64,000 bases of DNA from the IMG/VR virus record IMGVR_UViG_3300029610_000240. One strand, written 5' to 3'. The position numbers and the translations under genes are program-made. Positions 24,699-59,177 of the stretch are shown piece after piece. The notes beneath the pieces are model-generated. The model was given only the letters and a program-made list of their open reading frames with translations. It had not been told where the DNA came from and ran no database searches. This stretch comes from a virus (lineage: Duplodnaviria > Heunggongvirae > Uroviricota > Caudoviricetes). Within the stretch, counting starts at the first letter, position 1; each line of letters opens with the position of its first letter.

Positions 24699-25247
24699 GG
24701 TATCACTCCCTTAGTTTTCTGCTTGTGTTTTTGATCATTTTAACAATTTATTATATTTTATCATTTCTTTATTATTCTTTTAAATATATTATACTATGAT
24801 CAGAATACAATATCAAGTGCTTAACAGACGCAATTCATCTCTCACCTTAGAGGTCGGAGTCTTCTTGCTGGAAGAAGATAAAGTATAAGAATAAAAGCCC
24901 CAAAATCTTAACGGATAACGGGGCTTATTTTTTTGTTTAGAAGTTGGAATAAATTATAAATAATAATTTAAAATATGTAATATTCCCATATAATTATAAT
25001 GTTATTCTTGAAATATGTTCAAATAAAGCTAAAAAATATGGGAGCGTTACATATTTTTGCTTGTAATTTGTCAAGGTTATTGTATAATTAAATTATAACG
25101 AACGTTCGTACTAATTAATTTTGAAATGGAACAAAATGTGATTAGAAAGGTAACATTTTTACATGAATTTGGAAAAACAAAAAGAAAATTTCAAGAATCA
25201 TAGGGCAATATTTAAAGATCTTGGAAATAAGGAAGGAGTTGATTTTA

Positions 25248-25451
25248 ATGTTTGAAACTATATCTCACTTTGTTTTGGGTGTTGTTGCAATAGCTATTTT
25301 GCATATAGCTCTCACTTATGGTATGAGCGATAAAACAAACGACAATCCAAAGATAAGATTCTTAAAAACTGTGTGTTTTGTGGGTGCTTTTGTGGGTGCA
25401 AATATAATGATCATATTTTTCATTTATATTATTGTTAGGAGTCCATTATGA
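25248..25451 (+). CDS. small membrane protein
   Basis: ATG at 25248 behind AGGAAGGAG. Two hydrophobic helices. Confidence 0.45.
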   Translation: MFETISHFVLGVVAIAILHIALTYGMSDKTNDNPKIRFLKTVCFVGAFVGANIMIIFFIYIIVRSPL

Positions 25452-25479
25452 TATTGATTTTGCAAAAGGAGGAACAAGA

Positions 25480-25644
25480 ATGAGAATGGAAACTTTTTAC
25501 AAAATAATACTTGGAATAAGAGAGTTTCCCGGCTGTGCAGACTTGTTGTTAACTTATGATGATCAAGAAATTTTGCATCAATTATATAATCAGAATCACA
25601 TTGGAATACACATTATAGGTAGAAATTATAGTTGCCGCCGGTAA
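25480..25644 (+). CDS. hypothetical small protein
   Basis: ATG at 25480 behind AAAGGAGGA. Confidence 0.4.
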   Translation: MRMETFYKIILGIREFPGCADLLLTYDDQEILHQLYNQNHIGIHIIGRNYSCRR

Positions 25645-25675
25645 AATAGAGAAAATTATGTGAAGGAGAACGTTT

Positions 25676-25912
25676 ATGACAATAGCACAGCAGATTGCAC
25701 ATGACTTTTTAGCGAGTATAGAAAAAGTATGTGTCGAAAATAAAATAGATATTGGGTCATTAGAAACAAGTATTATTTATGACAAAGGAGCACAAGCAGG
25801 AATAGCAGTAAAAGATGCACAAGCAGGAATAATTATTGCATCTCTATTTTATGCCTTTTATTTTTCCCATATAAGAGAAATCCTTTTTATGATCTGCAAA
25901 AAGATGGAATAG
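25676..25912 (+). CDS. hypothetical small protein
   Basis: RBS GAAGGAGAA. Contains an internal duplicated GAQAGIAVKDAQAGII. Confidence 0.4.
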   Translation: MTIAQQIAHDFLASIEKVCVENKIDIGSLETSIIYDKGAQAGIAVKDAQAGIIIASLFYAFYFSHIREILFMICKKME

Positions 25913-25992
25913 ATATGATGGAAAAGGATTTCGGAAGTTTTTTGGACAAGTAGATCATATAGGCAGATATAAACGAATTGATCACAAGTTAA

Positions 25993-26667
25993 ATGAAAGA
26001 GGTTTTGAAGAAAATGAAAATAAAATGTAGTAAAAAATTAAAGAAAACGCATTTGAGTGATGGTGCTTATAATTTGCTAATCGAAGCTATTGTACTATAC
26101 GGCTTATTAATCAATCTTATAACATGTGCATTTTTTGCGGATTATGTAGCTATGATTCCATTAAGAGCATTGGTGATTGGATACCTGCTCATTTCAATTA
26201 TTGGAATAGTAATGTTAACCAGATATAAGGCTGTCCTTGTAAAATTTGTTGGATATAACATGATTGTGATTCCATGTGGAATAACATTATCAACCATCAT
26301 CAGTGATTATGCTGGTAGATCTGATCTTGTATTGCAAGCATTGATCATTACAACTATGATCACTTTTTGTATGATTACTCTTAGTTGCATATTCCCAAAG
26401 TTTTTTGTAGGTATTGGGAAAATGCTTTTTGTAGCATTAGTAGGAGTTGTTATTGCATATGTCGTATGCTATTTTGTCGGATTAAATACAGGAATTATAG
26501 CATGGATTTCGGCAATTATTTTTTCCTTATATATTGGATACGATTTTGTTTCAGCACAGCAGGCTAAACATACAGTTGCAAACGCAATTATTTACGGGGC
26601 TGATATTTATTTGGATCTGGTCAATCTTTTTGTTGAGATTTTAAGAATTTTAAAAGATAACGATTAA
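25993..26667 (+). CDS. Bax-inhibitor-1/YccA-like membrane protein
   Basis: Seven hydrophobic helices and the C-terminal GADIYLDLVNLFVEILRIL pattern typical of BI-1 family proteins. Confidence 0.6.
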   Translation: MKEVLKKMKIKCSKKLKKTHLSDGAYNLLIEAIVLYGLLINLITCAFFADYVAMIPLRALVIGYLLISIIGIVMLTRYKAVLVKFVGYNMIVIPCGITLSTIISDYAGRSDLVLQALIITTMITFCMITLSCIFPKFFVGIGKMLFVALVGVVIAYVVCYFVGLNTGIIAWISAIIFSLYIGYDFVSAQQAKHTVANAIIYGADIYLDLVNLFVEILRILKDND

Positions 26668-30297: not shown

Positions 30298-30498
30298 TTA
30301 ATCCGGAATGATCTCTATAACATCCTCTATTTTACAATTGAGATAGAGACAGATTTTGTCAATTGTCTCTAAAGAAATGTATTCTCCCTTAGACATTTTT
30401 GCGAGTGCATTTGTCCCAAATCCAATGTTTTTTCTAAGTTCGGTTTTTGTCATTCCTTTTTTAGTTAACGTTGTAAATAATGGTGTATAACTTACCAT
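30298..30498 (-). CDS. XRE-family helix-turn-helix regulator
   Basis: 66 aa. MTKTELRKNIGFGTNALAKMSKGEYISLETIDKICLYLNCKIEDVI is the classic short Cro/CI-type HTH. Confidence 0.85.
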   Translation of the reverse strand: MVSYTPLFTTLTKKGMTKTELRKNIGFGTNALAKMSKGEYISLETIDKICLYLNCKIEDVIEIIPD

Positions 30499-30499
30499 A

Positions 30500-30674
30500 A
30501 TGCAACCTCCTATGTTTGTATTATAGCATATTTTATTTCAAAATCAAAATAAAATATCTCGAAAAGCAAATATTTCTATTGACTTAATATCTCGAAAGTG
30601 ATACATTATATTTAGAAAAGCAAATAATTTATCTCGAAACAGAGATATATATTTATGAGTAAGGAGAATGTAAA
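30500..30674. promoter_or_regulatory. divergent promoter and operator region
   Basis: Three ATCTCGAAA boxes (30556, 30589, 30631), the last inside the palindrome TATCTC-N6-GAGATA. GAAAAGCAAATA occurs twice. Plus-strand TTGACT-17-TACATT; minus-strand TTGATT-16-TATAAT with TGc extension. Confidence 0.6.
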
Positions 30675-31259
30675 ATGAGCGAAATTGAAGTAAAAATTAG
30701 AGACGATAAAGCAATGTTATATACACCATATAATCCAGAGTTTGTTAAAAGGATTAAAAAATTTTCAGATGCGAGATGGAATTCGGGCGAAAAATGTTGG
30801 ACGATTGATGAATCAAATCTGGATGCTGCCAGAGTGATTATGAAAGAAATCTACGGATATGCAGATAATGAAATTAATGAAAAGGTCACACTCAAAATTC
30901 ATGTAAAGGAATCTGTAAGTAAAAAACATGGTGACGTAATCCTCTTTGGAAAAATCTTAAGTCATGCAACAGGTCGAGACAGTGGAGCACATCCCGGCAG
31001 TGACGTAGCCTATATTCATGGATCAGCTTACAGCGGTGGAAGTGCTAAGAACTGGGAGAGTGTAGTTAGTGAAGATAGTGAGATCTTATTACATAATGTC
31101 AATAAAAATCTTTATGAGGAATATCTTGAGAATCCGCAGGAAGAGTATGAGATAGAAGTTGTAACAGACAGTATTGACTCTGCTGCCTTGAAGCAAGAAA
31201 AGGAACGTTTATTAAAAAGAATCAAAGAAATTGATCATGTATTGAATTGTGAGGGATAA
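30675..31259 (+). CDS. hypothetical protein
   Basis: 194-aa ORF with RBS AAGGAGAA. Confidence 0.55.
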   Translation: MSEIEVKIRDDKAMLYTPYNPEFVKRIKKFSDARWNSGEKCWTIDESNLDAARVIMKEIYGYADNEINEKVTLKIHVKESVSKKHGDVILFGKILSHATGRDSGAHPGSDVAYIHGSAYSGGSAKNWESVVSEDSEILLHNVNKNLYEEYLENPQEEYEIEVVTDSIDSAALKQEKERLLKRIKEIDHVLNCEG

Positions 31260-32730: not shown

Positions 32731-32802
32731 TGATGATGACTTAATTGATGATTTAAGACAAAGTTTTAAAAATATGTAACAGATATATGTAAAAACAAAT
32801 GG
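32731..32802 (+). CRISPR. guide module A: one spacer-like segment plus one repeat
   Basis: Repeat GTTTTAAAAATATGTAACAGATATATGTAAAAACAAATGG (32763..32802), preceded by TGATGATGACTTAATTGATGATTTAAGACAAA. Confidence 0.6.
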
Positions 32803-32804
32803 CA

Positions 32805-32872
32805 GTTACATAATGCGTAAGAATAAGAATGTATCGAATAAGTCTATATAAGTAGAATCTACCAGGTGGTAG
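32805..32872 (+). ncRNA. tracrRNA-like scaffold A
   Basis: Anti-repeat GTTACATAATGCGTAAGAAT pairs with ATATGTAAC of the repeat. Nexus AAGAATGTATCGAAT. Hairpins TCTA/TAGA and CTACC-AGG-TGGTAG (32859..32872). Confidence 0.65.
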
Positions 32873-32904
32873 AAAATATTAAAACTAACAGGAGATAATA
32901 TTTC

Positions 32905-36133: not shown

Positions 36134-36277
36134 GTTTTGTAATCGTGTAAAAGCACTTAAATATGCTGTAGAAGATGTTTTGTTACTGTGCAACGGAAAT
36201 ATGTCTAAATGATTTAATTTATTACTACTTTTTATTCCTTTGTTTTGTAACCGTGTAACGGAGACATGTCTAAATGG
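36134..36277 (+). CRISPR. guide module B mini-array (3 repeats)
   Basis: Repeats at 36134..36165 (decayed), 36177..36212 and 36242..36277 (GTTTTGTAACCGTGTAACGGAGACATGTCTAAATGG). Spacers are 11 nt and 29 nt (TTTAATTTATTACTACTTTTTATTCCTTT). Confidence 0.7.
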
Positions 36278-36356
36278 TCAAATTATTTTGCACGGTGCGT
36301 AAAAATAAGAAATTATCGAATAGGCTCGTTAAAACGAGAGCTGCCGTGTGGCAGTA
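36278..36356 (+). ncRNA. tracrRNA-like scaffold B
   Basis: TCAAATTATT linker. Anti-repeat TTGCACGGTGCGTAAAAAT pairs with ACCGTGTAA. Nexus AAGAAATTATCGAAT. Hairpins CTCGT-TAAA-ACGAG and CTGCC-GTGT-GGCAG. Confidence 0.75.
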
Positions 36357-36499
36357 AATCTAAGCTACATCAATTTCAAGATTATAATTTGGGAGGAGAA
36401 AATGTTTGGGAAAATTAATGTTTTTTATTTATTGTTGGCTATATATTTGTATTATTTGTTATATTCTTGCAGCCAAGAACAAGAAAGAAGGTGTAGTGT

Positions 36500-43600: not shown

Positions 43601-43699
43601 ATCTAAAAAAAGATAGTGTTTAATATTTTTAGACAGATTCATTGGATGTATAAGAAATGTAAATAATCATCCGTTATTATCCATATCATATACAAAATG

Positions 43700-43847: not shown

Positions 43848-43856
43848 AGGTAAAAA

Positions 43857-43880
43857 GGCCAGAGAATATCTGGTCTTTTT
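43857..43880 (+). terminator. rho-independent terminator after module X
   Basis: CCAGA-GAATAT-CTGG stem followed by TCTTTTT. Confidence 0.5.
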
Positions 43881-44159
43881 ACTTAAAAATAGAGTATTAT
43901 TTATTAGCATTTTCTGATATAATATAAGCAGTGTTAGAGAGATATATGTAACACCATCGTTTATTAGAAAAGAATATACAGGGAAATTGCATCATTTTAT
44001 ACAATTTCTAAAGCGAGAGGTATTCATATATCTCTCGTTTTTTTTATGTGAAGAGTATTCGATTGAATGCTCTTTTTTCTTTGTAATAATCTAAACGATT
44101 TGTTACAGATCATCTCCTGGCATGAGTAACAAAAAGCTAATATGAAAGGAAGATGCTCT

Positions 44160-45038: not shown

Positions 45039-45131
45039 ACAATCAATATTAATTTATCTCAGGAGTCAGTAAGCAGATGCTTACTGGCTCTTTTAGTATA
45101 CAGAAAAAAATGAGGAGAAGAACACGAAACA

Positions 45132-49100: not shown

Positions 49101-50065
49101 ATCTGAACCGATTATTCTTAGAAAATATCAGCAGAGATGGACAGATTGCATGGGAAAGTGGTCCATATGGGTCAATTCAGACGGTTCGAAAAGAATATGC
49201 TCAAAACCATATTGCTGTTACAAAAAGAGTCGTGGAAGTAAAAGGCGGCTTATTTAAGCAGATGCCATTAAAAAAAGGACATGGCGAATATCCATTAAAA
49301 ACCAATGATCCTAGATTTGGCAATATCGCACAGTATGGAGGGTATACGAATGTCACAGGTTCCTATTTTGTATTAGTAGAATCAATGGAGAAAGGGAAAA
49401 AACGTATTTCTTTAGAATATGTTCCAGTATATCTTCATGAGCGTTTAGAGGATGATCCTGGACATAAACTGTTAAAAGAATATCTGGTTGATCACAGAAA
49501 ACTTAATCATCCAAAGATTTTACTTGCAAAAGTAAGAAAAAACTCATTACTTAAGATTGACGGTTTTTATTATCGTTTAAATGGTCGAAGTGGAAATGCT
49601 CTTATCCTTACAAATGCAGTGGAATTGATCATGGATGACTGGCAGACAAAAACAGCAAACAAGATTTCTGGATACATGAAACGCAGAGCTATTGATAAGA
49701 AAGCAAGGGTTTATCAAAATGAATTCCATATTCAGGAATTAGAACAGCTTTATGATTTTTATTTAGATAAATTAGAGAATGGTGTTTATAAAAATCGTAA
49801 GAATAATCAGGCTGAATTAATTCACAACGAAAAAGAACAGTTTATGGAACTCAAGACAGAAGATCAGTGTGTATTATTGACTGAGATTAAAAAGCTTTTT
49901 GTATGTTCTCCAATGCAGGCAGACCTTACATTGATTGGTGGCAGCAAACACACAGGAATGATTGCTATGTCAAGCAATGTTACAAAAGCAGATTTTGCAG
50001 TCATTGCGGAAGATCCTTTAGGACTTAGAAACAAAGTAATTTATTCTCATAAAGGTGAGAAGTAA
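46127..50065 (+). CDS. cas9: Cas9 homologue (type II-A-like size) with substituted RuvC and HNH catalytic residues
   Basis: GTG start 7 nt after AAGGAGGA. Conserved: bridge helix RRMFRTNRRLNQRKKNRIHYLRDIF, FPTVYHLRKYL, NRGHFLYKG, IPHQLQL, IPYYVGPL, PWNFDEMVDKEASAECFISRMT, YKGWGNLS. Catalytic columns: LGITVSSEQVGWAV (D10 is T), IFFKISREHQ (E762 is K), DIDYIYPLS (H840 is Y), QAAKDAYITIVVG (H983 is A, D986 kept). Confidence 0.9.
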   Translation: MQNGFLGITVSSEQVGWAVTNPKYELERASRKDLWGVRLFDKAETAEDRRMFRTNRRLNQRKKNRIHYLRDIFHEEVNQKDPNFFQQLDESNFCEDDRTVEFNFDTNLYKNQFPTVYHLRKYLMETKDKPDIRLVYLAFSKFMKNRGHFLYKGNLGEVMDFENSMKGFCESLEKFNIDFPTLSDEQVKEVRDILCDHKIAKTVKKKNIITITKVKSKTAKAWIGLFCGCSVPVKVLFQDIDEEIVTDPEKISFEDASYDDCIANIEKGVGIYYEAIVSAKMLFDWSILNEILGDHQLLSDAMIAEYNKHHDDLKRLQKIIKGTGSRELYQDIFINDVSGNYVCYVGHAKTMSSADQKQFYTFLKNRLKNVNGISSEDAEWIDTEIKNGTLLPKQTKRDNSVIPHQLQLREFELILDNMQEMYPFLKENREKLLKIFNFVIPYYVGPLKGVVRKGESTNWMVPKKDGVIHPWNFDEMVDKEASAECFISRMTGNCSYLFNEKVLPKNSLLYETFEVLNELNPLKINGEPISVELKQRIYEQLFLTGKKVTKKSLTKYLIKNGYDKDIELSGIDNEFHSNLKSHIDFEDYDNLSDEEVEQIILRITVFEDKQLLKDYLNREFVKLSEDERKQICSLSYKGWGNLSEMLLNGITVTDSNGVEVSVMDMLWNTNLNLMQILSKKYGYKAEIEHYNKEHEKTIYNREDLMDYLNIPPAQRRKVNQLITIVKSLKKTYGVPNKIFFKISREHQDDPKRTSSRKEQLKYLYKSLKSEDEKHLMKELDELNDHELSNDKVYLYFLQKGRCIYSGKKLNLSRLRKSNYQNDIDYIYPLSAVNDRSMNNKVLTGIQENRADKYTYFPVDSEIQKKMKGFWMELVLQGFMTKEKYFRLSRENDFSKSELVSFIEREISDNQQSGRMIASVLQYYFPESKIVFVKEKLISSFKRDFHLISSYGHNHLQAAKDAYITIVVGNVYHTKFTMDPAIYFKNHKRKDYDLNRLFLENISRDGQIAWESGPYGSIQTVRKEYAQNHIAVTKRVVEVKGGLFKQMPLKKGHGEYPLKTNDPRFGNIAQYGGYTNVTGSYFVLVESMEKGKKRISLEYVPVYLHERLEDDPGHKLLKEYLVDHRKLNHPKILLAKVRKNSLLKIDGFYYRLNGRSGNALILTNAVELIMDDWQTKTANKISGYMKRRAIDKKARVYQNEFHIQELEQLYDFYLDKLENGVYKNRKNNQAELIHNEKEQFMELKTEDQCVLLTEIKKLFVCSPMQADLTLIGGSKHTGMIAMSSNVTKADFAVIAEDPLGLRNKVIYSHKGEK

Positions 50066-50106: not shown

Positions 50107-50259
50107 GCTTTGGAACTGCGTAGAACATGATATGTCTTATGGCTAAAAGAATTACAGGTGCATATTTTGAACTGTGTAAAACATGGCATATGGGAGAATT
50201 GGCAACGACTGGAACAGAACACAGTTTTGAAACTGTATAAAACATGACATGTCTTATGG
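50107..50259 (+). CRISPR. guide module C mini-array (3 repeats), starting 42 nt after the cas9 stop
   Basis: Repeats at 50107..50142 (6 mismatches), 50164..50193 (30 nt, decayed) and 50224..50259 (GTTTTGAAACTGTATAAAACATGACATGTCTTATGG). Spacers: 21 nt CTAAAAGAATTACAGGTGCAT and 30 nt GAGAATTGGCAACGACTGGAACAGAACACA. Confidence 0.75.
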
Positions 50260-50336
50260 TTCAAATTATTTATACAGTACGTGAAAATAAGAAATTATCG
50301 AATAAACTCGTTTAGACGAGAACTGCTAGAGGCAGT
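50260..50336 (+). ncRNA. tracrRNA-like scaffold C
   Basis: Anti-repeat TTTATACAGTACGTGAAAAT gives a 10-bp perfect pairing with ACTGTATAAA. Nexus AAGAAATTATCGAAT. Hairpins CTCGT-TTAG-ACGAG and CTGC-TAGAG-GCAG (50323..50335). Confidence 0.8.
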
Positions 50337-50352
50337 AATTGCAGAAAATGTC

Positions 50353-50957: not shown

Positions 50958-50961
50958 TGTT

Positions 50962-51117
50962 ATTTTGAGAAATGATTGCAAATGTGATCGTAGCGTACCT
51001 TACTTCACAGCTTAGTTTTGGAACTATGTAAAATCAAATGATTGCAAATGGGCAGAGAGAAAATTTGAAAAATTGTCTGTGTTTTGGAACTATGTAAAAT
51101 CAAATGATTGCAAATGG
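50962..51117 (+). CRISPR. guide module D mini-array (3 repeats)
   Basis: Repeats at 50962..50985 (internally deleted), 51015..51051 and 51081..51117 (GTTTTGGAACTATGTAAAATCAAATGATTGCAAATGG). Spacers: GATCGTAGCGTACCTTACTTCACAGCTTA and GCAGAGAGAAAATTTGAAAAATTGTCTGT. Confidence 0.8.
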
Positions 51118-51193
51118 TCAAAGTAATTGCATGGCGTGTAAAAATAAGAATTTATCGAAATAATTTGCTCCGGCGAAATCTGCAAGATGCAGA
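51118..51193 (+). ncRNA. tracrRNA-like scaffold D
   Basis: TCAAAGTAA linker. Anti-repeat TTGCATGGCGTGTAAAAAT pairs with CTATGTAA through two G:U. Nexus AAGAATTTATCGAAAT. Hairpins TTTGC-TCCG-GCGAA and TCTGC-AAGA-TGCAGA. Confidence 0.75.
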
Positions 51194-51197
51194 AATC

Positions 51198-51290: not shown

Positions 51291-51445
51291 ATAAAATTGA
51301 ATGATTCCAATGGATAGTCGAAAAAGAATTGGATAGTCGACGGGTTTTAGAATAGTGTAAAATTGAATGATTCTAAGGGTTAGATACTCCACTAGATAGC
51401 AAAGTACTTGTTTTAGAATAGTGTAAAATTAAATGATTCTAAGGG
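51291..51445 (+). CRISPR. guide module E mini-array (3 repeats)
   Basis: Repeats at 51292..51313 (3' half only), 51344..51379 (GTTTTAGAATAGTGTAAAATTGAATGATTCTAAGGG) and 51410..51445. Spacers: ATAGTCGAAAAAGAATTGGATAGTCGACGG and TTAGATACTCCACTAGATAGCAAAGTACTT. Confidence 0.8.
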
Positions 51446-51528
51446 GTCAAATAGATTCTATACAATGCGTGAAAATAAGAAACTTATCGAACAAACCTGT
51501 GTAGGAAACAGGAACTGCCGAGGGCAGT
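51446..51528 (+). ncRNA. tracrRNA-like scaffold E
   Basis: GTCAAATAGAT linker, anti-repeat TCTATACAATGCGTGAAAAT, nexus AAGAAACTTATCGAAC. Hairpins CCTGT-GTAGGAA-ACAGG and CTGCC-GAG-GGCAG (51515..51527). Confidence 0.75.
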
Positions 51529-51823
51529 AAAAATAAAAAGCATATTTTTATTATGTTTTATTTTATGATGAAGAGGTGGATGATGGTTCTATCTCTGTTT
51601 TTGAGAAAATGGATGCATTGCAAAATGCAACAATCTTAGAAGTACAAATACATATTGATGACTTAAAAGATAAATTGGAAGAAGTAAAATTTACTCTTAA
51701 AATATCAGGTTTGTATTTGAAGAAGATAATTTTATGGATTCTTATTATAAATCTTATACGTTACCGATTGTATATCACAAAAACTATTTATTAAGTATTA
51801 ACAATGATAAGGAATAACAATAA

Positions 51824-53755
51824 ATGGAAATAGATTACAGAAAAGAATTAAATAAGAGTCAATATGAAGCTGTTACAACGACAGAAGGACCAGTCCTAAT
51901 CCTTGCCGGTGCCGGAACTGGCAAAACTCGTTGTATGGTATATCGTGTGGCATATCTGATTGAAAAAGGCGTGTCACCCAATAATATCTTATTATTGACC
52001 TTTACAAATAAAGCAGCAAATGAAATGAAGCAAAGGGCAGCAGATATGCTTGATGAACGATGTAGTCAAATTACTGCATGTACATATCATTCATTCTGTG
52101 CAAAGATGCTTCGCAAATATTCACAACTGATTGGAATTCAATCAGATTATACAATTATTGATCCGGGAGATTGTGCAGATATCATATCGATCATCGAAAC
52201 AGAACACGGTATGGATAAAGTAAAAGATTTTCCAAGATCATCTCAACTGGTATCAGCACATAGCAAAGCCTTAAATACGAATCAGTCATTAGAGGATACT
52301 TTGTTTGATATGCTCGGTAAATGGAAGTATATGGAAATCGAAAGATTCATTCCAGATATAAAGAAAATCTTAGCGGATTATCAATCATACAAAAAACAAA
52401 ACAACATGATGGATTATGATGATTTGCTAATCAATTTTATATCTGTATTGAAAAGAAACCCTTCTATAAAGAATAAATTAGCTGATATTTATCAGTATAT
52501 TATGATCGACGAATATCAGGATTCTAATTATTTACAGGAAAAGATTATTTTTATGTTACGTGAAAAGAATCGTAACTTAGCAGTGGTAGGTGATGATTAC
52601 CAATGCATCTATGGATTTAGAGGAAGTATGGTAGAAAATATCATTAATTTTCCACAAAAGATGTCCGGATGTAAAGTTGTTTACTTAACACAGAATTATC
52701 GCAGCAATCAAGAGATCATGGATTTATCCAATATTGTTATGAAAAAACATTCACTGGAAGGTTTTTTTAAAAAGCTTGTCGCAACTCATGTGGCCAATAT
52801 TCAGCCATTGCTAGTTCGATCAGAGGACGAGGGCGAAGAAGCTTCTTATATTTTAAATAAGATTATGGCATTACATGATGAAGAAGAGATTCCGTATCAT
52901 GAAATTTGTGTTCTTGAAAGAAGTTCTTATCATTCTGTAAGACTAGAAGCACTTTTAAATAAAATGAAAATCCCATATGACAAATATGGTGGAATGAAGT
53001 TTTTTGATTATGATCATATCAAAAACTTCTTATGCTTTTTGCGATGTCAGATAAATCCACATGATGAAATTGCGTGGTTTCGACTATTAAAGTTATTTGA
53101 TGGTATTGGAAATGTTTATGCCAGAAATATCGCAGCAACATGTAAAACTCTTGGATTAGAGGGACTTGTTCAACACAAATACATAAAAAGAAAATTTCAG
53201 CCGGATCTTGAAAATTTAAAGAGTTTTATTGAAAAGCTTAATGATCAAGATTTTCAGATCGAATTGCAAAGCATTAAATCATTTTATTCACGTTTAATGG
53301 ACATTACATTAATGCTGATGAAAACATCGGAGAAGAAACGTAGGGAGCTTGCTAGAGCAAATAAACAAGCGGTCCGCGATTTTGATACACTGATTGAAAT
53401 GGCAGATGGATATGATTCTCCAGTGACATTTCTGGAAGAAATAATGCTTGAAGCCAGTCCTCAGAAAGAGGAAGAGGAAGATCGAATGGTTATATCTACA
53501 ATTCATTCCGCAAAAGGCTTAGAGTTTCACTCTGTTTTTGTTATGAACTGCGTAGATACAATGTTTCCATCTACAGATAAAGATCAGATTGGAACAGTAG
53601 AAGATAACGAAGAGTTGAGATGCTTCTATGTGGCAATAACACGGGCAAAAGAACGATTATTTTTAATGGCACCGAAATATATAGCCAAATTTGGATGTGT
53701 TGAAGAGGGAATTATCTCCCATTTTATTAGTGATGTTTTTCAAGTAAAGGAGTAA
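51824..53755 (+). CDS. UvrD/PcrA-type SF1 DNA helicase
   Basis: Walker A AGAGTGKT, motif II IMIDEYQDSN, QNYRSNQEI, late STIHSAKGLEF and FYVAITRAKERL. Confidence 0.85.
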   Translation: MEIDYRKELNKSQYEAVTTTEGPVLILAGAGTGKTRCMVYRVAYLIEKGVSPNNILLLTFTNKAANEMKQRAADMLDERCSQITACTYHSFCAKMLRKYSQLIGIQSDYTIIDPGDCADIISIIETEHGMDKVKDFPRSSQLVSAHSKALNTNQSLEDTLFDMLGKWKYMEIERFIPDIKKILADYQSYKKQNNMMDYDDLLINFISVLKRNPSIKNKLADIYQYIMIDEYQDSNYLQEKIIFMLREKNRNLAVVGDDYQCIYGFRGSMVENIINFPQKMSGCKVVYLTQNYRSNQEIMDLSNIVMKKHSLEGFFKKLVATHVANIQPLLVRSEDEGEEASYILNKIMALHDEEEIPYHEICVLERSSYHSVRLEALLNKMKIPYDKYGGMKFFDYDHIKNFLCFLRCQINPHDEIAWFRLLKLFDGIGNVYARNIAATCKTLGLEGLVQHKYIKRKFQPDLENLKSFIEKLNDQDFQIELQSIKSFYSRLMDITLMLMKTSEKKRRELARANKQAVRDFDTLIEMADGYDSPVTFLEEIMLEASPQKEEEEDRMVISTIHSAKGLEFHSVFVMNCVDTMFPSTDKDQIGTVEDNEELRCFYVAITRAKERLFLMAPKYIAKFGCVEEGIISHFISDVFQVKE

Positions 53756-53791
53756 TTTATAGTGAAATGCTTAAATTATGTTGTCAATGTG

Positions 53792-53965
53792 GATTTGAAT
53801 CCATGTAAAAATGTAAAGCAAATGATTCCAAATGGCAATCTTCTCGAATTGTCGTGTAGGCAAAGTTTTGAAACCATGTAAAAAAATGATTCCAAATGGG
53901 TATGCATTGGTGTTTGAAGCGTTTGTGTGTTTTGGAACCATGTAAAAGCAAATGATTCCAAATGG
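53792..53965 (+). CRISPR. guide module F mini-array (3 repeats)
   Basis: Repeats at 53792..53835 (internal duplication), 53865..53899 (2-nt deletion) and 53929..53965 (GTTTTGGAACCATGTAAAAGCAAATGATTCCAAATGG). Spacers: CAATCTTCTCGAATTGTCGTGTAGGCAAA and GTATGCATTGGTGTTTGAAGCGTTTGTGT. Confidence 0.8.
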
Positions 53966-54043
53966 TTAAAAGCAGATTACATGGTGTGTCAAAATAAGAA
54001 CTTATCGAATAGATCTATATAAATGGAATCTGCCAGGTGGCAG
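53966..54043 (+). ncRNA. tracrRNA-like scaffold F
   Basis: Anti-repeat TTACATGGTGTGTCAAAAT gives a 9-bp perfect pairing with ACCATGTAA. Nexus AAGAACTTATCGAAT. Hairpin 2 CTGCC-AGGT-GGCAG (54030..54043). Hairpin 1 is weak and resembles that of scaffold A. Confidence 0.75.
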
Positions 54044-54053
54044 AAAAAAACTG

Positions 54054-54131: not shown

Positions 54132-54133
54132 GC

Positions 54134-55411: not shown

Positions 55412-55543
55412 ATATCATCAAAGAGGTTTTGGTTAACTAAAGGTTGATTATCGGTATATCATTGTTCGGTGTCTGTAGACAGCATTTTTTCAAATCTATA
55501 GTTGTTATAAAATAAGAGACACTTTCATGTATAGTGGAGTTTA

Positions 55544-55570
55544 GTTTCAGAAGTTTATAAAAACAGATAA
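55544..55570 (+). CRISPR. guide module G: single divergent repeat
   Basis: GTTTCAGAAGTTTATAAAAACAGATAA, preceded by the candidate guide GAGACACTTTCATGTATAGTGGAGTTTA. Confidence 0.5.
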
Positions 55571-55580
55571 CTATTAATGA

Positions 55581-55658
55581 TTATCTGTTTCATGGATTGT
55601 GTAAAAATAAGCAAATTAGCGAATATGCTCGTTGAAACGAGAGCTGTTAGATAACAGC
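55581..55658 (+). ncRNA. tracrRNA-like scaffold G
   Basis: TTATCTGTTT pairs perfectly with AAACAGATAA across a 10-nt loop. GATTGTGTAAAAAT, nexus variant AAGCAAATTAGCGAAT. Hairpins CTCGT-TGAA-ACGAG and GCTGTTA-GA-TAACAGC. Confidence 0.6.
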
Positions 55659-55710
55659 TAAAAATGTAACTATATAAATTAATTTGTAAATTATAGGGAG
55701 GACTATTTTA

Positions 55711-55866: not shown

Positions 55867-55875
55867 GGTGAAATA

Positions 55876-56091: not shown

Positions 56092-56094
56092 GAT

Positions 56095-56249
56095 ACAGAA
56101 GAATCATTGTCGATGTTAAACATATTATGTGAAACATTATTGTCAGGCTTTAGAAGTCTATAAAACAGAATCATTGTCAATGAGATCAAATTCTTTATGA
56201 CAACGCAATACAGCTTTAGAAGTCTATAAAACAGAATCATTGTCAATGG
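56095..56249 (+). CRISPR. guide module H mini-array (3 repeats)
   Basis: Repeats at 56095..56115 (3' half only), 56147..56183 and 56213..56249 (GCTTTAGAAGTCTATAAAACAGAATCATTGTCAATGG). Spacers: TTAAACATATTATGTGAAACATTATTGTCAG and GATCAAATTCTTTATGACAACGCAATACA. Confidence 0.8.
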
Positions 56250-56325
56250 TCAAATAAGCAGACTGCGTAAAAATAAGAATTTTATCGATATTGCTCGTGT
56301 AGTCGAGAACTGCCAAGTGGCAGCA
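56250..56325 (+). ncRNA. tracrRNA-like scaffold H
   Basis: TCAAATAAG linker, anti-repeat CAGACTGCGTAAAAAT, nexus AAGAATTTTATCGAT. Hairpins CTCG-TGTAGT-CGAG and CTGCC-AAGT-GGCAG (56310..56323). The next gene's RBS follows 18 nt later. Confidence 0.75.
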
Positions 56326-56352
56326 ACATTTATAATAAAAAGGAGGAATTAT

Positions 56353-57006: not shown

Positions 57007-57007
57007 G

Positions 57008-57238
57008 ATGGAAAATAAAAATAAACCAAACCAAGAATTATTAACTATTAAAGAAACGGCAAAATTATTAAAAGTAAATCCACATAGAGTATATGACTTA
57101 GTGAGAATGGGAATTTTGCCAGCACTAAAATTAGGAAGCCTGAAAATACGAAGACAGGCATTAAATGAATTCCTTGAAGAATATGAAGGGATGGATCTGA
57201 CAGATTTAAATGAGATCAAAAAATTAGAAGTTAAATAA
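57008..57238 (+). CDS. excisionase-type HTH DNA-binding protein
   Basis: ATG behind AAGGAGGA. LLTIKETAKLLKVNPHRVYDLVRMGILPALKLGSLKIRRQALNEF is the excisionase/MerR-like winged helix. Confidence 0.7.
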   Translation: MENKNKPNQELLTIKETAKLLKVNPHRVYDLVRMGILPALKLGSLKIRRQALNEFLEEYEGMDLTDLNEIKKLEVK

Positions 57239-57660
57239 AAAGGAGCTGTTATGTCGGGATAATCTGATATAATAGCTCTTTTTTTGTAGCAAATTCTAAA
57301 TACTAATTAACAAATTAACTATATTATAAAGGATAATTTGATGATGGTAAATAATGAAGTCCCACGTCAGGCCCACGGAGAGTGCGGCACGAATAAGCAC
57401 GTATATGCATAATATACATAAAAATAGCATGCGTGATACGTTCTGGTTGTGAAAAATATACGAAAAAAGCACAAAATAACACGATATAACATAGGTAGTC
57501 ATTCGCAGTTGGGTTGGGTAACAACCCAATGGTAGGAGCTACAGTAGCTGTAGCTGTATCTATTGAGGAAGCTGCTAAAGCAGGTAAATTCTAGGAAACC
57601 ACGTATTTAAGCGGTTTTTTGAGGGTGTTAGAAGTGGTAAAAAGTAGTGAAATGTAGACA

Positions 57661-57704
57661 ATCTCTATATTATCTCTACACTATCTCTATACCACATCTC
57701 TACA
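57661..57704 (+). repeat. four direct ATCTCTA(T/C)A repeats (candidate recombinase arm sites)
   Basis: Copies start at 57661, 57672, 57683 and 57696 (spacing 11, 11, 13 bp), about 65 bp beyond the 3' end (stop) of the integrase gene. Confidence 0.5.
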
Positions 57705-57769
57705 CTCAAAAATGTGAATAAGAAGAGAGAGCCAATTAATTTTGACTCTCTTTTTTTCTTCGTTTTATT

Positions 57770-59011
57770 TTATTTTATTTTCATGATCTCGGCCATTAGC
57801 CACTCTGGTTTTCGTTTTGTGTAAGTAGCTTCTGTGATATCGTTGATCTTGTGACCCATCATATATTTTAATGCATATTCATCTACTTTATCTCTTTTTG
57901 CCATCGTGGAAAACTGAATCCTTGGATCATGAGCTCTGTGATCTGGATTGAGCTCTAATTTCTTAACAATCTTTTCGAATCGATGTCTATATTTATCATA
58001 CGTCATTTTTAAGCTACTTCGGTGTGTTTTTGTATCAGTGCAGTTGATTAAATAATCACTTCCAAGATTTATTGCTTCCTGGTATCGATGCTTGACTAGA
58101 TCACGAATCCGTGGATGGATTGGAACCAAGCGATCTTTACCTGCGTCAGTCTTCATACCGCCGATAAAAAACCAATTTTCCAGATCTACATTTTTTAATT
58201 CAATTAGACCCAATTCTTGTGGTCGCCATCCAGAGTAGCATTGGATCAGAATCACATCCACATAATCAGTATCATACAAATGATCCCATAATTTTTTTAT
58301 TTCTTCATCCGTAAAATCAATATGGTCCTTCTTCGCTTCTTTAACATCTTTAATAACATCATCAGACAAATTAAAGGTCCTTGCATAATTCTTGTCTACT
58401 AATTCATACTCTAGCGCATAATCCAACATTAAGTTGAATAGAGATTTTATCTTTGTCTTTGTAGTAGGAGATGCGTGTTTTTCTTTACCATCGACTACAT
58501 ACGTTCCATCTTCCATACAACCTTTAATATGTCGGGCACGTAAATCTTTTGCACGCATATCATAAACAGCAGAGCAGTAGTTCCAGGCAGATTTAATTGT
58601 ACGTTCACTTGAAGGACTTGACAGGGATTCAAAATATTTATCAGTCCACTTTTCGTATAATTGCTCGACTGTCAGATCAGAGTCAAGATCATACGGATTT
58701 TTATGATATTCAAGTAATGCAGCGTAAGCATCATTATAGGTTTTGAAATATGTTTCTGGTTTCAATGATTTATAAATAGGTTTTCCATAAAAATTTTTTC
58801 CAACACAGACTAATGCACGAAAAGGCTTTCTAAGATTTTGATTTTTTAATTCGGATATAGTGCCAAATCCATTTGGAAGACGTTTTCGTTTATTAGTTTT
58901 TCTTTGTTGTTGTTTAATAACTTTTGTATCTAGAGGATAACCGCAGTGAGGACAAGTTATTGCCTTATCACTTACCTGCAATTGACATTCTGGACATTTG
59001 ATCAGTGCCAT
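57770..59011 (-). CDS. tyrosine recombinase/integrase with N-terminal zinc ribbon
   Basis: CPECQ..CPHCG at the N-terminus. C-terminal catalytic pattern RAHDPRIQF..MMGHKINDITEATYTKR (R..HxxR..Y). Confidence 0.85.
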   Translation of the reverse strand: MALIKCPECQLQVSDKAITCPHCGYPLDTKVIKQQQRKTNKRKRLPNGFGTISELKNQNLRKPFRALVCVGKNFYGKPIYKSLKPETYFKTYNDAYAALLEYHKNPYDLDSDLTVEQLYEKWTDKYFESLSSPSSERTIKSAWNYCSAVYDMRAKDLRARHIKGCMEDGTYVVDGKEKHASPTTKTKIKSLFNLMLDYALEYELVDKNYARTFNLSDDVIKDVKEAKKDHIDFTDEEIKKLWDHLYDTDYVDVILIQCYSGWRPQELGLIELKNVDLENWFFIGGMKTDAGKDRLVPIHPRIRDLVKHRYQEAINLGSDYLINCTDTKTHRSSLKMTYDKYRHRFEKIVKKLELNPDHRAHDPRIQFSTMAKRDKVDEYALKYMMGHKINDITEATYTKRKPEWLMAEIMKIK

Positions 59012-59177
59012 ATATCATCATTCCTTTCTAAAAAAGGGTACAAAAAATACACCCTTATCAATTTGTAATTTTGCAGGATGTATGATATAATTCTGGTGTT
59101 CAGGCAGAGATTACATCAATCACCCATGATTGATAATTTCTGAAATTCCGTCCAGTTGGTAGCTGGGCGGTTTTCTT

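What the first reader, a model, noticed from the sequence alone, without database searches (positions are those of the whole stretch)
25000..59170. The dead-Cas9 system rides on an integrase/excisionase-bearing AT-rich island rich in secreted hydrolases
The right end carries an Xis-like HTH (57008..57238) and a Zn-ribbon tyrosine integrase (57770..59011, minus strand). An XRE repressor with a triple-operator divergent promoter sits at 30.3-30.7 kb. In between are about 40 co-oriented genes. These are mostly hypothetical, with many local paralogue pairs, plus a C1 peptidase, two M34-like metalloproteases, a GH73 glucosaminidase and Ig-like proteins. I recognised no capsid, terminase, portal or type IV secretion genes. 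A mobile element carrying a binding-only CRISPR effector could use it to silence host or competitor genes, or to regulate itself.
Basis: partly seen in the sequence, partly recalled or inferred. Interest (0 to 1): 0.55.

Follow-up and report, generated by a model that had tools for sequence, protein, structure and literature searches.

The report
Dead Cas9 on a giant element
A gut bacterium (Anaerostipes hadrus) carries a roughly 245,000-base mobile element that encodes a Cas9 without cutting residues and many scattered, self-contained guide-RNA cassettes, at least two of which match phages. This looks like a natural, non-cutting version of CRISPR interference.

Summary
D10, E762, H840 and H983 equivalents are T, K, Y and A across its clade, yet dN/dS is 0.06-0.16. 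The island boundaries are wrong.

The right junction is an 83-bp att core (57515-57597), the 3' end of a GGGtGRT gene. The Zn-ribbon integrase lies beyond it. It occurs, identical, in A. hadrus genomes that lack the island, so it belongs to a neighbouring element.

There is no left boundary at 25000. Public contigs are colinear across 1-57260. They continue about 189 kb further to a different integrase (439 aa) that abuts the same GGGtGRT core. The element is therefore about 245 kb.

The main new result: eight Rfam RAGATH-30 hits in the island are tracrRNA tails. Each is fused to an anti-repeat that pairs, with compensatory changes, with the last repeat of a 1-3-repeat mini-CRISPR array (36-nt repeats, 30-nt spacers). 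These are natural sgRNA-like cassettes. They also occur at both far ends of the element.

Spacers differ between otherwise identical copies. One matches 30/30 a prophage and another matches 28/30 gut phages. Both sites lie just upstream of phage replication genes.

Most likely function: nuclease-free interference against competing phages. That step is inferred.

The parts
46127..50065 (+). dCas9, 1312 aa. Full Cas9 architecture, with catalytic residues replaced: D->T in RuvC-I, E->K in RuvC-II, H->A in RuvC-III and H->Y in HNH.
   Evidence: Pfam finds Cas9_REC, PI, BH and HNH_4. The best PDB match is 9jwk at E=7e-216. Motif alignment against active relatives is. dN/dS is 0.06-0.16. NCBI names it Cas9 of Anaerostipes hadrus, WP_044924278.1.
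32733..32875 (+). Guide cassette U1: one guide, a 36-nt repeat, an anti-repeat and a tracr tail. It lies 30 nt upstream of ORF 32905.
   Evidence: RAGATH-30 hit at 32817-32875, 71.4 bits. Sequence, fold. The guide is conserved in L021.
36134..36357 (+). Guide cassette U2: degenerate repeats at 36134 and 36177, terminal repeat at 36242, and a tracr tail.
   Evidence: RAGATH-30 hit at 36299-36357, 78.6 bits. Repeats. The sgRNA-like fold has an energy of -30.7 kcal/mol.
50107..50338 (+). Guide cassette U3, immediately downstream of dCas9.
   Evidence: RAGATH-30 hit at 50281-50338. Repeats at 50107, 50163 and 50224. L032 carries an extra spacer here.
50970..51195 (+). Guide cassette U4: a truncated repeat, spacer TGATCGTAGCGTACCTTACTTCACAGCTTA (50985-51014), a repeat, spacer 51051-51080, the terminal repeat and a tracr tail.
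   Evidence: The first spacer matches 30/30 a prophage-like element in gut metagenomes. Spacer content differs between copies.
51292..51530 (+). Guide cassette U5: two 30-nt spacers and a tracr tail, upstream of the UvrD-like helicase operon.
   Evidence: RAGATH-30 hit at 51469-51530. Repeats at 51344 and 51410.
53799..54046 (+). Guide cassette U6: two spacers and a tracr tail, upstream of the glucosaminidase gene.
   Evidence: RAGATH-30 hit at 53988-54046, 76.4 bits, with the alignment shown. The fold energy is -34.4 kcal/mol. L002, L003, L001 and L031 carry different spacers.
55514..55660 (+). Guide cassette U7: a single conserved guide and an atypical repeat, upstream of the DUF6906 ORF.
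   Evidence: RAGATH-30 hit at 55601-55660. The guide is identical in every copy that contains this cassette.
56093..56326 (+). Guide cassette U8: two spacers and a tracr tail, about 25 nt upstream of the 217-aa ORF that precedes the Xis-like gene.
   Evidence: RAGATH-30 hit at 56267-56326. Repeats at 56147 and 56213.
57008..57238 (+). HTH_17 protein (76-84 aa), a candidate excisionase or regulator. It is the last gene of the element.
   Evidence: Pfam HTH_17, E=1e-12. In the relatives L001 and L040 this position holds a Tn916-Xis gene followed by a Tn916-type integrase.
57239..57514 (.). Right arm of the element, between the Xis-like gene and the core.
   Evidence: It is shared with L005 and L006 (element-core-chromosome junction) and absent from island-free loci.
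57515..57597 (.). att core, 83 bp, identical to the last ~80 nt plus stop codon of the GGGtGRT gene.
   Evidence: Present in the empty site (L054, L057, L060, L062), the Int413 junction (L012-L020), the Int439 junction (L053, L112) and the right junction (L005).
57770..59011 (-). Zn-ribbon tyrosine integrase (413 aa). It is NOT part of the dCas9 element. It is the first gene of a neighbouring element that runs from 57598 past the window end.
   Evidence: The identical protein is indexed in 8761 blocks of the collection. All ten places shown, read from the longest contigs, lack the island. 57512-64000 is 99.5-100% identical to the island-free loci that span it (L012, L014-16, L018-20). The family is typical of 30-60 kb IMG/VR prophages.
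30298..30675 (-). XRE repressor gene with a divergent intergenic region that carries three TATCTCGAAA repeats.
   Evidence: Pfam HTH_26. Repeats.
40987..45959 (+). Secreted C1 peptidase with a lectin domain, and two ATLF metalloproteases, directly upstream of dCas9. This synteny is kept in relatives that are 71-74% identical.
   Evidence: Pfam. Synteny in L038, L040 and L042.
51824..53755 (+). UvrD/PcrA-type SF1 helicase between guide cassettes. It is absent at this position in L038 and L040, so it is not an obligate partner.
   Evidence: Pfam UvrD-helicase and UvrD_C. Relatives.
1..24999 (+). More of the same element:
- LPXTG adhesin
- transglutaminase/Big_2 surface protein
- GDPD
- AAA_21 ATPase
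- Eco57I-type methylase with a BsuBI/PstI endonuclease
- IS200/IS605 copies
- IscB with HEARO RNA
   Evidence: Colinear with IMG/VR contig 3300029328_000184 and others. Pfam, Rfam.

Best explanation
The window lies inside, and reaches the right end of, a ~245-kb integrative element of Anaerostipes hadrus. The element is inserted at the 3' end of the GGGtGRT gene.

The order of features is:
- GGGtGRT-core
- a 439-aa integrase
- about 189 kb of element outside the window
- window 1-57514
- the core at 57515-57597
- a second, unrelated element that starts with the Zn-ribbon integrase, inserted in tandem

The large element encodes a Cas9 that has lost its RuvC and HNH catalytic residues but is under strong purifying selection. 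It also carries many dispersed guide cassettes. Each cassette is a mini-CRISPR array whose last repeat is followed, on the same strand, by its own anti-repeat, nexus and two hairpins. This gives a natural sgRNA-like RNA, or a crRNA:tracrRNA pair after RNase III cleavage. The spacer next to the tracr part serves as the guide.

Shown:
- the anatomy of the cassettes
- dead catalytic motifs
- purifying selection
- repeat/anti-repeat covariation
- spacer turnover between copies
- two phage matches
- the att junctions

Inferred: dCas9 loaded with these guides binds target DNA without cutting it. It thereby blocks transcription or replication of competing temperate phages, at the entry to their exonuclease/ssDNA-binding/DNA-polymerase module. 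This lets the element fight phages, including integrated ones, without breaking the host chromosome.
For: Dead but maintained protein:
- RuvC-I GLDLG is GITVS, RuvC-II VEMARE is FKISRE, HNH DIDHIYP is DIDYIYP, and RuvC-III LHHAKDAY is LQAAKDAY. This holds across members 71-100% identical; one member keeps the HNH H.
- 16 clusters have deleted the HNH domain altogether, residues ~743-898.
- dN/dS is 0.06-0.16.
- The bridge-helix arginines are invariant.
- The 90%-identity cluster has 2780 member sequences, and one member is seen on at least 1000 contigs.

Guide cassettes:
- Eight RAGATH-30 hits at 64.7-78.6 bits (gathering score 59.5), all on the plus strand and all intergenic.
- 36-nt repeats at a 66-nt period lie directly 5' of each hit.
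- MFE folds give the Cas9 sgRNA shape: lower stem, bulge, upper stem, nexus, two hairpins.
- Across 13 distinct cassettes, 95.9% of cells are paired, against 36-51% when the partner is slid. Five of 9 upper-stem pairs show compensatory changes, and 0 of 500 shuffles reach the observed score.
- The tail resembles the tracrRNA of a canonical II-A locus whose Cas9 is 42% identical.
- Cassettes follow dCas9 in relatives that are 73-74% identical.
- Cassettes also occur within 8 kb of Int439 and upstream of the adhesin.

Spacer turnover:
- Copies with 100% identical flanks differ in the spacers of U3-U6. In most comparisons the difference is at the tracr-proximal end.
- L036 and L037 share an array but no spacers.

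Targets:
- The U4 spacer matches 30/30 or 29/30 in 9 gut metagenome contigs and 2 genomes. The site is inside a PemK/MazF gene directly upstream of DUF2800 nuclease, Enc34 ssDNA-binding protein and PolA, next to an XRE/M78 switch.
- A spacer from the Int439 end matches 28/30 in phage NatCom_43819 (human faeces) and Terrisporobacter phage TPDSL_ph1. The site is 22 nt upstream of the first gene of the operon hyp-hyp-exonuclease-SSAP-DNA polymerase.

Element and att site.
Against: - No RNA, binding or phenotype data exist. Loss of cleavage is inferred from motifs only.
- Only 2 of the roughly 50 distinct spacers collected have a match. The second match is 28/30 with BLAST E=0.02 and has a mismatch 10 nt from the PAM side.
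- Only 6 spacers could be scanned against the large collections. The other 5 found nothing.
- The two 3' flanks (AGAAG/AGAGG and GAAAA) do not define a clear PAM.
- The first protospacer has coding-strand sense. For SpdCas9 that is the weaker orientation for blocking elongation (own knowledge).
- The named carriers of target 1 are not called A. hadrus.
- No cas1, cas2 or csn2 is in the window, so the source of new spacers is unknown.
- Guides U1, U7 and U8 are invariant and unmatched, which fits a fixed regulatory role better.
- The ~245-kb size is stitched from overlapping contigs, not read from one molecule.
- Whether Int439 acts on this element is untested.
Confidence: 0.5

Rival explanations
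1. RNA-guided gene regulator. dCas9 and the cassettes form a transcription-factor system that controls genes of the element itself or of the host. The cassettes sit in the 5' leaders of the genes they help regulate.
For: - The cassettes lie 15-50 nt upstream of co-oriented ORFs, and by eye no U-tract follows their last hairpin.
- Guides U1, U7 and U8 are identical in all copies.
- No adaptation genes are in the window.
- Precedents exist: tracr-L, and the TldR and dCas12f regulators.
Against: - No spacer has a full or 17/20 match in the window or in the loci held when the search was run, about 0.9 Mb.
- A later search for exact 13-nt PAM-side seeds over 2.3 Mb gave only partial matches, no more than 21 of 30.
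- A scan of JGI metagenome contigs for the U8 guide found nothing.
- Spacers in U3-U6 and in the adhesin-side array differ between otherwise identical copies. A fixed regulator would not do this.
- Two spacers match phages.
Confidence: 0.2
2. Counter-defence decoy. The element makes a dead Cas9 and guide RNAs to soak up, or compete with, a host type II system. Alternatively it occupies sites so that an active Cas9 cannot cut them.
For: - The system is carried by a mobile element.
- Phage-encoded sgRNAs that subvert host Cas9 have been described.
- The repeats and tail are related to those of canonical II-A systems of Lachnospiraceae.
Against: - The spacers do not match the element itself.
- Each cassette keeps its own co-varying repeat/anti-repeat pair. 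A decoy aimed at a single host repeat would not need this.
- No active type II locus of A. hadrus was identified here.
Confidence: 0.1
3. Decaying remnant. A type II system captured by the element has lost its activity, and the arrays are relics.
For: - Catalytic residues are lost and some variants have deleted HNH.
- No cas1, cas2 or csn2 is nearby.
- The repeat at the 5' end of each array is truncated.
Against: - dN/dS is 0.06-0.16 over lineages with synonymous divergence (dS) above 1.
- The ORF is intact in 38 of the 40 cluster members read, out of 2780.
- Compensatory changes keep repeat and anti-repeat paired.
- Spacers turn over.
- Synteny is kept at 71-74% identity.
Confidence: 0.03
4. 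The island is the ~34-kb unit the first reader drew, mobilised by the Zn-ribbon integrase at 57770-59011 together with the Xis-like protein.
For: - The Xis-like gene and the integrase are 530 bp apart and convergent.
- The same adjacency is seen in L003, L004, L002 and L032.
- The element and the integrase's own elements use the same 83-bp core, so the integrase might act on it in trans.
Against: - The core lies between the two genes.
- L005 has the element's right end joined to the chromosome with no integrase.
- The integrase and its right flank occur without the island.
- There is no boundary or core copy anywhere in 1-57480.
Confidence: 0.05

Closest known systems
Canonical type II-A CRISPR-Cas9 (cas9-cas1-cas2-csn2, tracrRNA, one array), for example the locus of the 42%-identical Cas9 P0068 (L156)
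   Same: - The same Cas9 domain order: BH, REC, HNH and PI.
- 36-nt repeats beginning GTTT with 30-nt spacers.
- An anti-repeat, nexus and two-hairpin tracr tail with the shared motif ATTTATCGAA.
   Different: - RuvC and HNH catalytic residues are replaced.
- No adaptation genes lie next to it.
- There is not one array and one tracrRNA. There are many mini-arrays, each with its own tracr part in cis, spread over ~245 kb.
- It is carried by a mobile element.
tracr-L, the natural single-guide RNA of S. pyogenes that makes Cas9 repress its own promoter (as summarised in 10.64898/2026.06.01.729453)
   Same: A crRNA-like part and a tracrRNA part lie in one RNA, joined by a long loop. The action is binding without cutting.
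   Different: - tracr-L works with an active Cas9, through a short 11-13-nt match to one fixed target (the cas9 promoter).
- Here the guides are full 30-nt spacers, they are many and variable, the protein itself is dead, and no match to the dCas9 upstream region was found.
Phage-encoded sgRNAs (vsgRNAs) that subvert host Cas9 (bioRxiv 10.64898/2026.06.01.729453)
   Same: Compact natural sgRNA-like RNAs encoded on mobile elements.
   Different: - vsgRNAs have no cognate cas9 on the element and are aimed at the host's cas9 promoter.
- Here the element brings its own dead Cas9 and arrays with spacers against phages.
- That paper does not mention RAGATH or a dead Cas9.
Binding-only or nuclease-poor CRISPR effectors and RNA-guided regulators: type IV-A, Cas12m, Cas12c (own knowledge); TldR and dCas12f-sigmaE (PMC10705468, PMC12259090)
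   Same: These RNA-guided proteins have lost cutting and act by occupying DNA. Several are carried by plasmids or phages and used in conflicts between elements or for regulation.
   Different: None derives from Cas9. None has its guides as dispersed array-tracr cassettes. No natural dead Cas9 turned up in five full-text searches.
Rfam RF03055, RAGATH-30 RNA (an sRNA candidate given no function in its Rfam entry)
   Same: Eight matches above the gathering score in the window, and more in related loci.
   Different: The Rfam model treats the first 26 nt as unpaired. Here they are the 3' half of an anti-repeat plus the nexus, and they pair with a CRISPR repeat that lies about 45 nt upstream, outside the model.
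Integrative elements that accrete in tandem at one att site (tyrosine-recombinase prophages, ICEs, IMEs)
   Same: - An 83-bp core at the 3' end of a conserved gene.
- Empty, single and tandem occupancy states.
- An integrase at one end and a small HTH protein at the other.
   Different: - The size is about 245 kb.
- No phage structural genes or conjugation genes were found in the 64 kb read.
- The mode of transfer is unknown.

Membership tests
Type II CRISPR-Cas (Cas9 effector) | Cas9 multidomain protein (bridge helix, REC lobe, HNH insert, PI domain) | tested here: met
   Pfam finds Cas9_REC at 1.5e-138, Cas9_PI at 2e-57, Cas9-BH and HNH_4. PDB 9jwk matches at E=7e-216.
Type II CRISPR-Cas (Cas9 effector) | Functional RuvC (D10, E762, H983, D986) and HNH (H840) catalytic residues | tested here: not met
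   The residues are T, K, A, D and Y respectively. This holds clade-wide, except that one member keeps the HNH H. Some variants lack the HNH domain. SpCas9 numbering is from my own knowledge.
Type II CRISPR-Cas (Cas9 effector) | tracrRNA whose anti-repeat pairs with the CRISPR repeat | tested here: met
   Folds. Covariation: 95.9% of cells paired, 5 of 9 upper-stem pairs compensatory.
Type II CRISPR-Cas (Cas9 effector) | Adaptation genes cas1 and cas2 (plus csn2 or cas4) in the locus | tested here: not met
   None among the ORFs of the 64-kb window. The remaining ~190 kb of the element was not read.
Rfam RF03055 RAGATH-30 | Covariance-model score at or above the gathering score (59.5 bits) | tested here: met
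   Eight hits at 64.7-78.6 bits.
Natural single-guide RNA (tracr-L type) | crRNA-like and tracr parts present on one transcript | not testable with these tools
   Both parts are on the same strand, separated by about 30 nt, and a cis fold is predicted. Transcript ends need RNA-seq or 5' RACE.
Natural single-guide RNA (tracr-L type) | Short guide matching the cas9 promoter (auto-repression) | tested here: not met
   No 11-nt or longer PAM-side match of any guide upstream of 46127. The only seed match in the window is 13 nt, at 12127 on the minus strand.
Tyrosine-recombinase integrative element | The same core sequence at both junctions and in an unoccupied site | tested here: met
   The core 57515-57597 is found in L054, L057, L060 and L062 (empty site), L053 and L112 (left junction) and L005 (right junction).
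Tyrosine-recombinase integrative element | Its own integrase inside the element | tested here: inconclusive
   The Zn-ribbon integrase is outside the element. The 439-aa integrase abuts GGGtGRT and lies on the same contigs as the window's adhesin, 185-188 kb away. Its activity on this element is untested.
Tyrosine-recombinase integrative element | Excision (circular form or restored empty site in the same strain) | not testable with these tools
   This needs read-pair or PCR evidence. The Xis-core-Int413 arrangement in the window is explained by tandem insertion and is not proof of a circle.
Prophage | Capsid, portal, terminase and tail genes | tested here: not met
   None found by Pfam or PHROGs in the window. 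The other ~190 kb was not tested. IMG/VR lists the long contigs as viral.
Integrative conjugative element | Relaxase, coupling protein and VirB4-type ATPase | tested here: not met
   None in the window, nor in the 10 kb left of the adhesin, which holds pilin, sortases and surface proteins. The rest was not tested.

The most novel reading that the evidence does not exclude
This is a new, nuclease-free branch of type II CRISPR. A giant mobile element keeps an adaptive repertoire of phage-derived spacers in dozens of dispersed mini-arrays. Each array is wired in cis to its own tracrRNA, so that the newest spacer (added at the tracr-proximal end, next to a leader-anchor-like GGTCAAAT motif) is expressed directly as a natural single-guide RNA for a dead Cas9. 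That dead Cas9 silences the replication modules of rival phages without cutting DNA. On this reading the orphan Rfam family RAGATH-30 is the tracrRNA tail of the system.
Probability: 0.4. Interest if true: 0.9.

Novelty: new variant of a known kind. Interest (0 to 1): 0.8.

Why it matters
- Engineered dCas9 with an sgRNA is a standard laboratory tool. A natural, selected and abundant counterpart in a common human gut butyrate producer would show that evolution reached the same design.
- It would add Cas9 to the list of CRISPR effectors exapted for binding-only roles.
- It would give a function to an orphan RNA family, RAGATH-30.
- The cis array-tracr cassette is a compact natural template for guide design.
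- The hypervariable spacers raise a testable question: how does a system with no visible cas1-cas2 acquire them?
- A non-cutting system can target integrated prophages without killing the host. That would be a new logic for conflicts between mobile elements in the gut.
- The att analysis defines a hotspot at the GGGtGRT gene of A. hadrus where a ~245-kb element, prophages and a RepA_N/ParAB element stack in tandem.

Tried and rejected
- Self-targets. Each spacer was searched against the window (at least 16/20, or an 11-nt or longer 3' seed). The only hit was a 13-nt seed of the U2 spacer at 12127 on the minus strand, taken as chance. Searches of the held loci, 0.9 Mb and later 2.3 Mb, gave only chance-level 13-nt seeds.
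- BLAST of spacers. Twenty-four spacers against GenBank phages and 28 against PLSDB plasmids found nothing. Megablast of 36000-57600 against phages also found nothing.
- Exact scans. IMG/VR scans for three spacers found nothing. A JGI metagenome scan for the U8 guide found nothing.
- Relatives in GTDB. A search of species representatives for the dCas9 found no relative.
- Walking left. The exact 1480-aa adhesin is not on record.
- Test of a circular form. I tested whether the window shows an attP circle of an element that includes the Zn-ribbon integrase and the RepA_N/ParAB genes. Neither gene is on the ~200-kb contigs that carry the adhesin and dCas9. The idea was dropped in favour of tandem insertion once Int439 was found on those contigs.
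- Promoter and terminator scan of 49900-57700. Promoter-like sites were not above the shuffled expectation (43 found against 37.5 +/- 5.9), so no transcript model was built.
- PHROGs on ten hypothetical island proteins. Only three families of unknown function matched.
- Naming the host of the active relative P0068.
- UvrD helicase as an obligate partner. Rejected, because it is absent beside dCas9 in L038 and L040.

Full report
**1. What is at the stated coordinates**

- Bax1-I at 25993, M78 peptidase at 28088 and XRE/HTH_26 at 30298-30498, minus strand.
- SPFH at 36500, DUF3990 at 38612, Big_6 at 39769, C1 peptidase with a lectin domain at 40987 and ATLF at 44142.
- A second ATLF at 45132, Cas9 at 46127-50065, UvrD helicase at 51824, glucosaminidase at 54134, HTH_17 at 56984-57238 and a Zn-ribbon tyrosine integrase at 57770-59011, minus strand.

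Further points that hold:
- Three TATCTCGAAA copies lie in the XRE divergent region.
- Nearly all ORFs are on the plus strand.
- GC is 31.3% for 25000-57514, against 38-41% in A. hadrus chromosomal flanks.
- No phage structural gene or conjugation gene was found.

**2. The Cas9 is dead but maintained**

I aligned the protein with its nearest active relatives (42-43% identity, Lachnospiraceae and Clostridium). The replacements are:

| Motif | Active relatives | This protein |
|---|---|---|
| RuvC-I | GLDLG | GITVS |
| RuvC-II | VEMARE | FKISRE |
| HNH | DIDHIYP | DIDYIYP |
| RuvC-III | LHHAKDAY | LQAAKDAY |

- The same replacements occur in clade members that are 89%, 74%, 73% and 71% identical. 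One member keeps the HNH histidine.
- Sixteen further clusters have deleted residues ~743-898, the whole HNH domain.
- Even so, dN/dS between lineages is 0.06-0.16, and the bridge-helix arginines are invariant.
- NCBI annotates the protein as Cas9 of Anaerostipes hadrus (WP_044924278.1). One member sequence is seen on at least 1000 contigs.
- Relatives at 71-74% identity keep the neighbourhood C1 peptidase, ATLF, dCas9, glucosaminidase, DUF6906, 217-aa protein, Xis.

**3. The unexpected part: dispersed guide cassettes**

- Rfam finds eight RAGATH-30 RNAs, all on the plus strand and all intergenic, between 32.8 and 56.3 kb.
- Directly 5' of each lies a mini-CRISPR array of 1-3 repeats of 36 nt (GTTTTGGAAC.ATGTAAAA...), with 30-nt spacers and a 66-nt period. 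The 5'-most repeat is truncated.
- After the last repeat and a roughly 30-nt linker comes a stretch complementary to the first ~17 nt of that repeat. It runs straight into the RAGATH-30 match.
- Rfam's consensus leaves the first 26 nt unpaired (GUAAAAAUAAGAAuUUAUCGAA...) and ends in two hairpins. That is the layout of a tracrRNA: the 3' half of the anti-repeat, the nexus and two hairpins.
- MFE folds of five of the eight cassettes (U2-U6) give the familiar sgRNA shape.
- The eight cassettes have different repeat variants, and each anti-repeat changes to match. On 13 distinct cassettes, 95.9% of cells pair (36-51% when the partner is slid). Five of 9 upper-stem pairs and all 5 pairs of hairpin 1 show compensatory changes. 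None of 500 shuffles reaches the observed score.
- A canonical cas9-cas1-cas2-csn2 locus of a 42%-identical Cas9 has a tracrRNA with the same ATTTATCGAA nexus motif.
- By eye, no U-tract follows the last hairpin, and the next ORF starts 15-50 nt downstream. The cassettes therefore probably sit in polycistronic transcripts. This step is inferred.

**4. Spacers turn over**

- Public contigs that are 100% identical to the window over tens of kilobases differ exactly in the arrays.
- In U3-U6 the spacers differ between copies. In four of five informative comparisons the distal spacer is shared and the tracr-proximal one differs.
- An array upstream of the adhesin has three spacers in L037 and three entirely different ones in L036.
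- U1, U7 and U8 guides are invariant.
- The terminal repeat is followed by a conserved GGTCAAAT. Its reverse complement resembles the ATTTGAG that ends the leader of the canonical locus. This fits acquisition at that end. It is a lead only; the role of ATTTGAG as a leader anchor comes from my own knowledge.

**5. Targets**

No guide matches the window or the loci I held.

First match:
- The U4 spacer TGATCGTAGCGTACCTTACTTCACAGCTTA matches 30/30 or 29/30 in nine human-gut metagenome contigs.
- It also matches in Clostridium sp. OF09-36 and an uncultured Eubacterium MAG.
- The site is inside a PemK/MazF gene that directly precedes DUF2800 nuclease, Enc34 ssDNA-binding protein and family-A DNA polymerase. 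It lies downstream of a divergent XRE/M78 switch. This is the early region of a temperate phage.

Second match:
- A spacer from a cassette near the far left end matches 28/30 (BLAST E=0.02) in phage NatCom_43819 from human faeces and in Terrisporobacter phage TPDSL_ph1.
- The site is 22 nt upstream of the first gene of an operon hyp-hyp-exonuclease-SSAP-DNA polymerase.

The 3' flanks are AGAAG/AGAGG and GAAAA. Six spacers in all were scanned against the large collections. One gave the first match above, and the other five found nothing. Most spacers remain untested at that scale.

**6. Boundaries**

- The exact Zn-ribbon integrase is indexed in 8761 blocks of the collection. In all ten places shown, its 3' end abuts a chromosomal GGGtGRT gene with no dCas9 island.
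- Window 57512-64000 is 99.5-100% identical to those island-free loci that span it.
- Four site states share window 57515-57597, which is the last ~80 nt of GGGtGRT:
  - empty sites: GGGtGRT-core-host CRISPR array-HTH_5-HMA ATPase (L054, L057)
  - the Int413 junction
  - a junction with a 439-aa integrase (L053; L061, on a 3.1-Mb contig)
  - the element's right end joined straight to the chromosome (L005)
- So the element ends at the core, and the Zn-ribbon integrase starts a second element inserted in tandem.
- That integrase family typically ends 30-60 kb prophages. One example (L011) carries PolA, DUF2800 and VapE.
- On the left there is no boundary. Related contigs are colinear from 19761 on. 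The TnpB at 23580-24698 is an IS insertion.
- IMG/VR contig 3300029328_000184 is colinear with 1-57260. No second core copy exists in the window.
- The 439-aa integrase lies on two contigs that also carry the window's adhesin, 185-188 kb away.
- RAGATH-30 cassettes and IscB/HEARO occur within 8 kb of that integrase.
- Adding about 189 kb to 57.5 kb gives about 245 kb.
- Some relatives (L001, L040) instead end in a Tn916-type Xis-Int pair at another chromosomal site. The integration module is therefore exchangeable.

**7. How it most likely works**

Shown: a conserved Cas9 without catalytic residues; cognate, co-varying array-tracr cassettes; spacer turnover; phage matches near replication genes; carriage on an integrative element.

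Inferred: the cassettes yield guide RNAs that load dCas9. The complex binds phage DNA without cutting it and blocks transcription or replication. This would work even on a prophage in the same chromosome, where cutting would be lethal.

I put this at about 0.5. Regulation of the element's own genes or host genes is about 0.2, supported by the invariant guides and the 5'-leader position. A counter-defence decoy is about 0.1. A decaying relic is very unlikely.

**8. Comparison with known systems and novelty**

- The system fails one defining test of a type II effector (active nuclease sites) and lacks adjacent adaptation genes. It meets the protein-architecture, tracrRNA and repeat-spacer tests.
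- It works like tracr-L or an engineered dCas9-sgRNA, and like binding-only systems such as type IV-A, Cas12m, Cas12c, TldR and dCas12f. It is not a member of those families.
- Eight full-text searches were run. They covered a natural dead Cas9, RAGATH-30, RAGATH with tracrRNA, and Anaerostipes with Cas9. None found a description of this system. The vsgRNA preprint does not mention it. The library is incomplete, so prior description elsewhere cannot be excluded.
- I rate it a new variant of a known kind, of high interest.

Noticed in passing
window 19765-21319: A HEARO RNA (112 bits) lies directly upstream of a 424-aa RRXRR+HNH ORF with a PLMP-like N-terminus. This is an IscB/omega-RNA unit, from the ancestral family of Cas9, on the same element as the dead Cas9. 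More IscB/HEARO copies lie near Int439 (L053, L112) and in variants (L021, L026).
   Followed up: partly
window 7056-7493, 17020-19036, 23580-24698(-): There are several IS200/IS605 units: Y1 TnpA-like ORFs and TnpB (OrfB_IS605 plus Cas12f1-like TNB). The TnpB at 23580 is an insertion that is absent from some relatives. It created the apparent edge near 25000.
   Followed up: partly
window 51196-51275 and 54054-54128; also L112 downstream of the cassette at 171: A long inverted repeat, AGCTGATC(A/G)AT...ATTGATCAGCT with a ~45-50-nt loop, follows several guide cassettes. After U6 a T-run follows it. It may be a terminator or another RNA or DNA element.
   Followed up: no
L054 9500-10000; L060 9531-13124 (chromosome just right of the att core): The empty att site is followed by a host CRISPR array with a 30-nt repeat, GAATTAATAGAATCATAATGGAATTTAAAT, and ~36-nt spacers (about 50 repeats in L060). 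It is unrelated to the type II mini-arrays. The giant element inserts between GGGtGRT and this array's leader side.
   Followed up: partly
window 12249-16359: A defence-like cluster sits inside the element: an AAA_21 ATPase with a small partner ORF, then an Eco57I-type N6 methylase and a BsuBI/PstI-type restriction endonuclease.
   Followed up: no
window 12127(-), inside the GDPD gene 11325-12146: The 13 PAM-side nucleotides of the U2 spacer (TTTTTATTCCTTT) match here. This is the only seed-length self-match in the window. The sequence is AT-rich, so the match is probably chance.
   Followed up: partly
proteins P0003-P0018: These dCas9 variants of ~1151-1159 aa are 96-99% identical elsewhere but have cleanly lost residues ~743-898, the HNH domain. 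They occur on contigs up to 111 kb.
   Followed up: partly
L053/L061 15135-17011; L037 2087-8712: The giant element also carries an accessory SecY/SecA pair near Int439. Left of the LPXTG adhesin it carries a pilin with two sortases. This suggests a large surface-protein export cargo.
   Followed up: no
L022, L028, L030 (variants of window 31-36 kb): The cassette content between the XRE gene and U2 is mosaic between copies. PARG_cat_microb and Aq_aa04 genes replace window genes. Several breakpoints fall at the guide cassettes U1 and U2.
   Followed up: no
window 57598-64000 and beyond (L014-L020): The neighbouring Int413 element carries an Ig-like protein, two flavodoxins, MerR, a hexapeptide acetyltransferase and an aldo-keto reductase. 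Beyond the window it has ParB-ParA-ParB, RepA_N and a choloylglycine hydrolase. It looks like an integrated plasmid-like element.
   Followed up: partly
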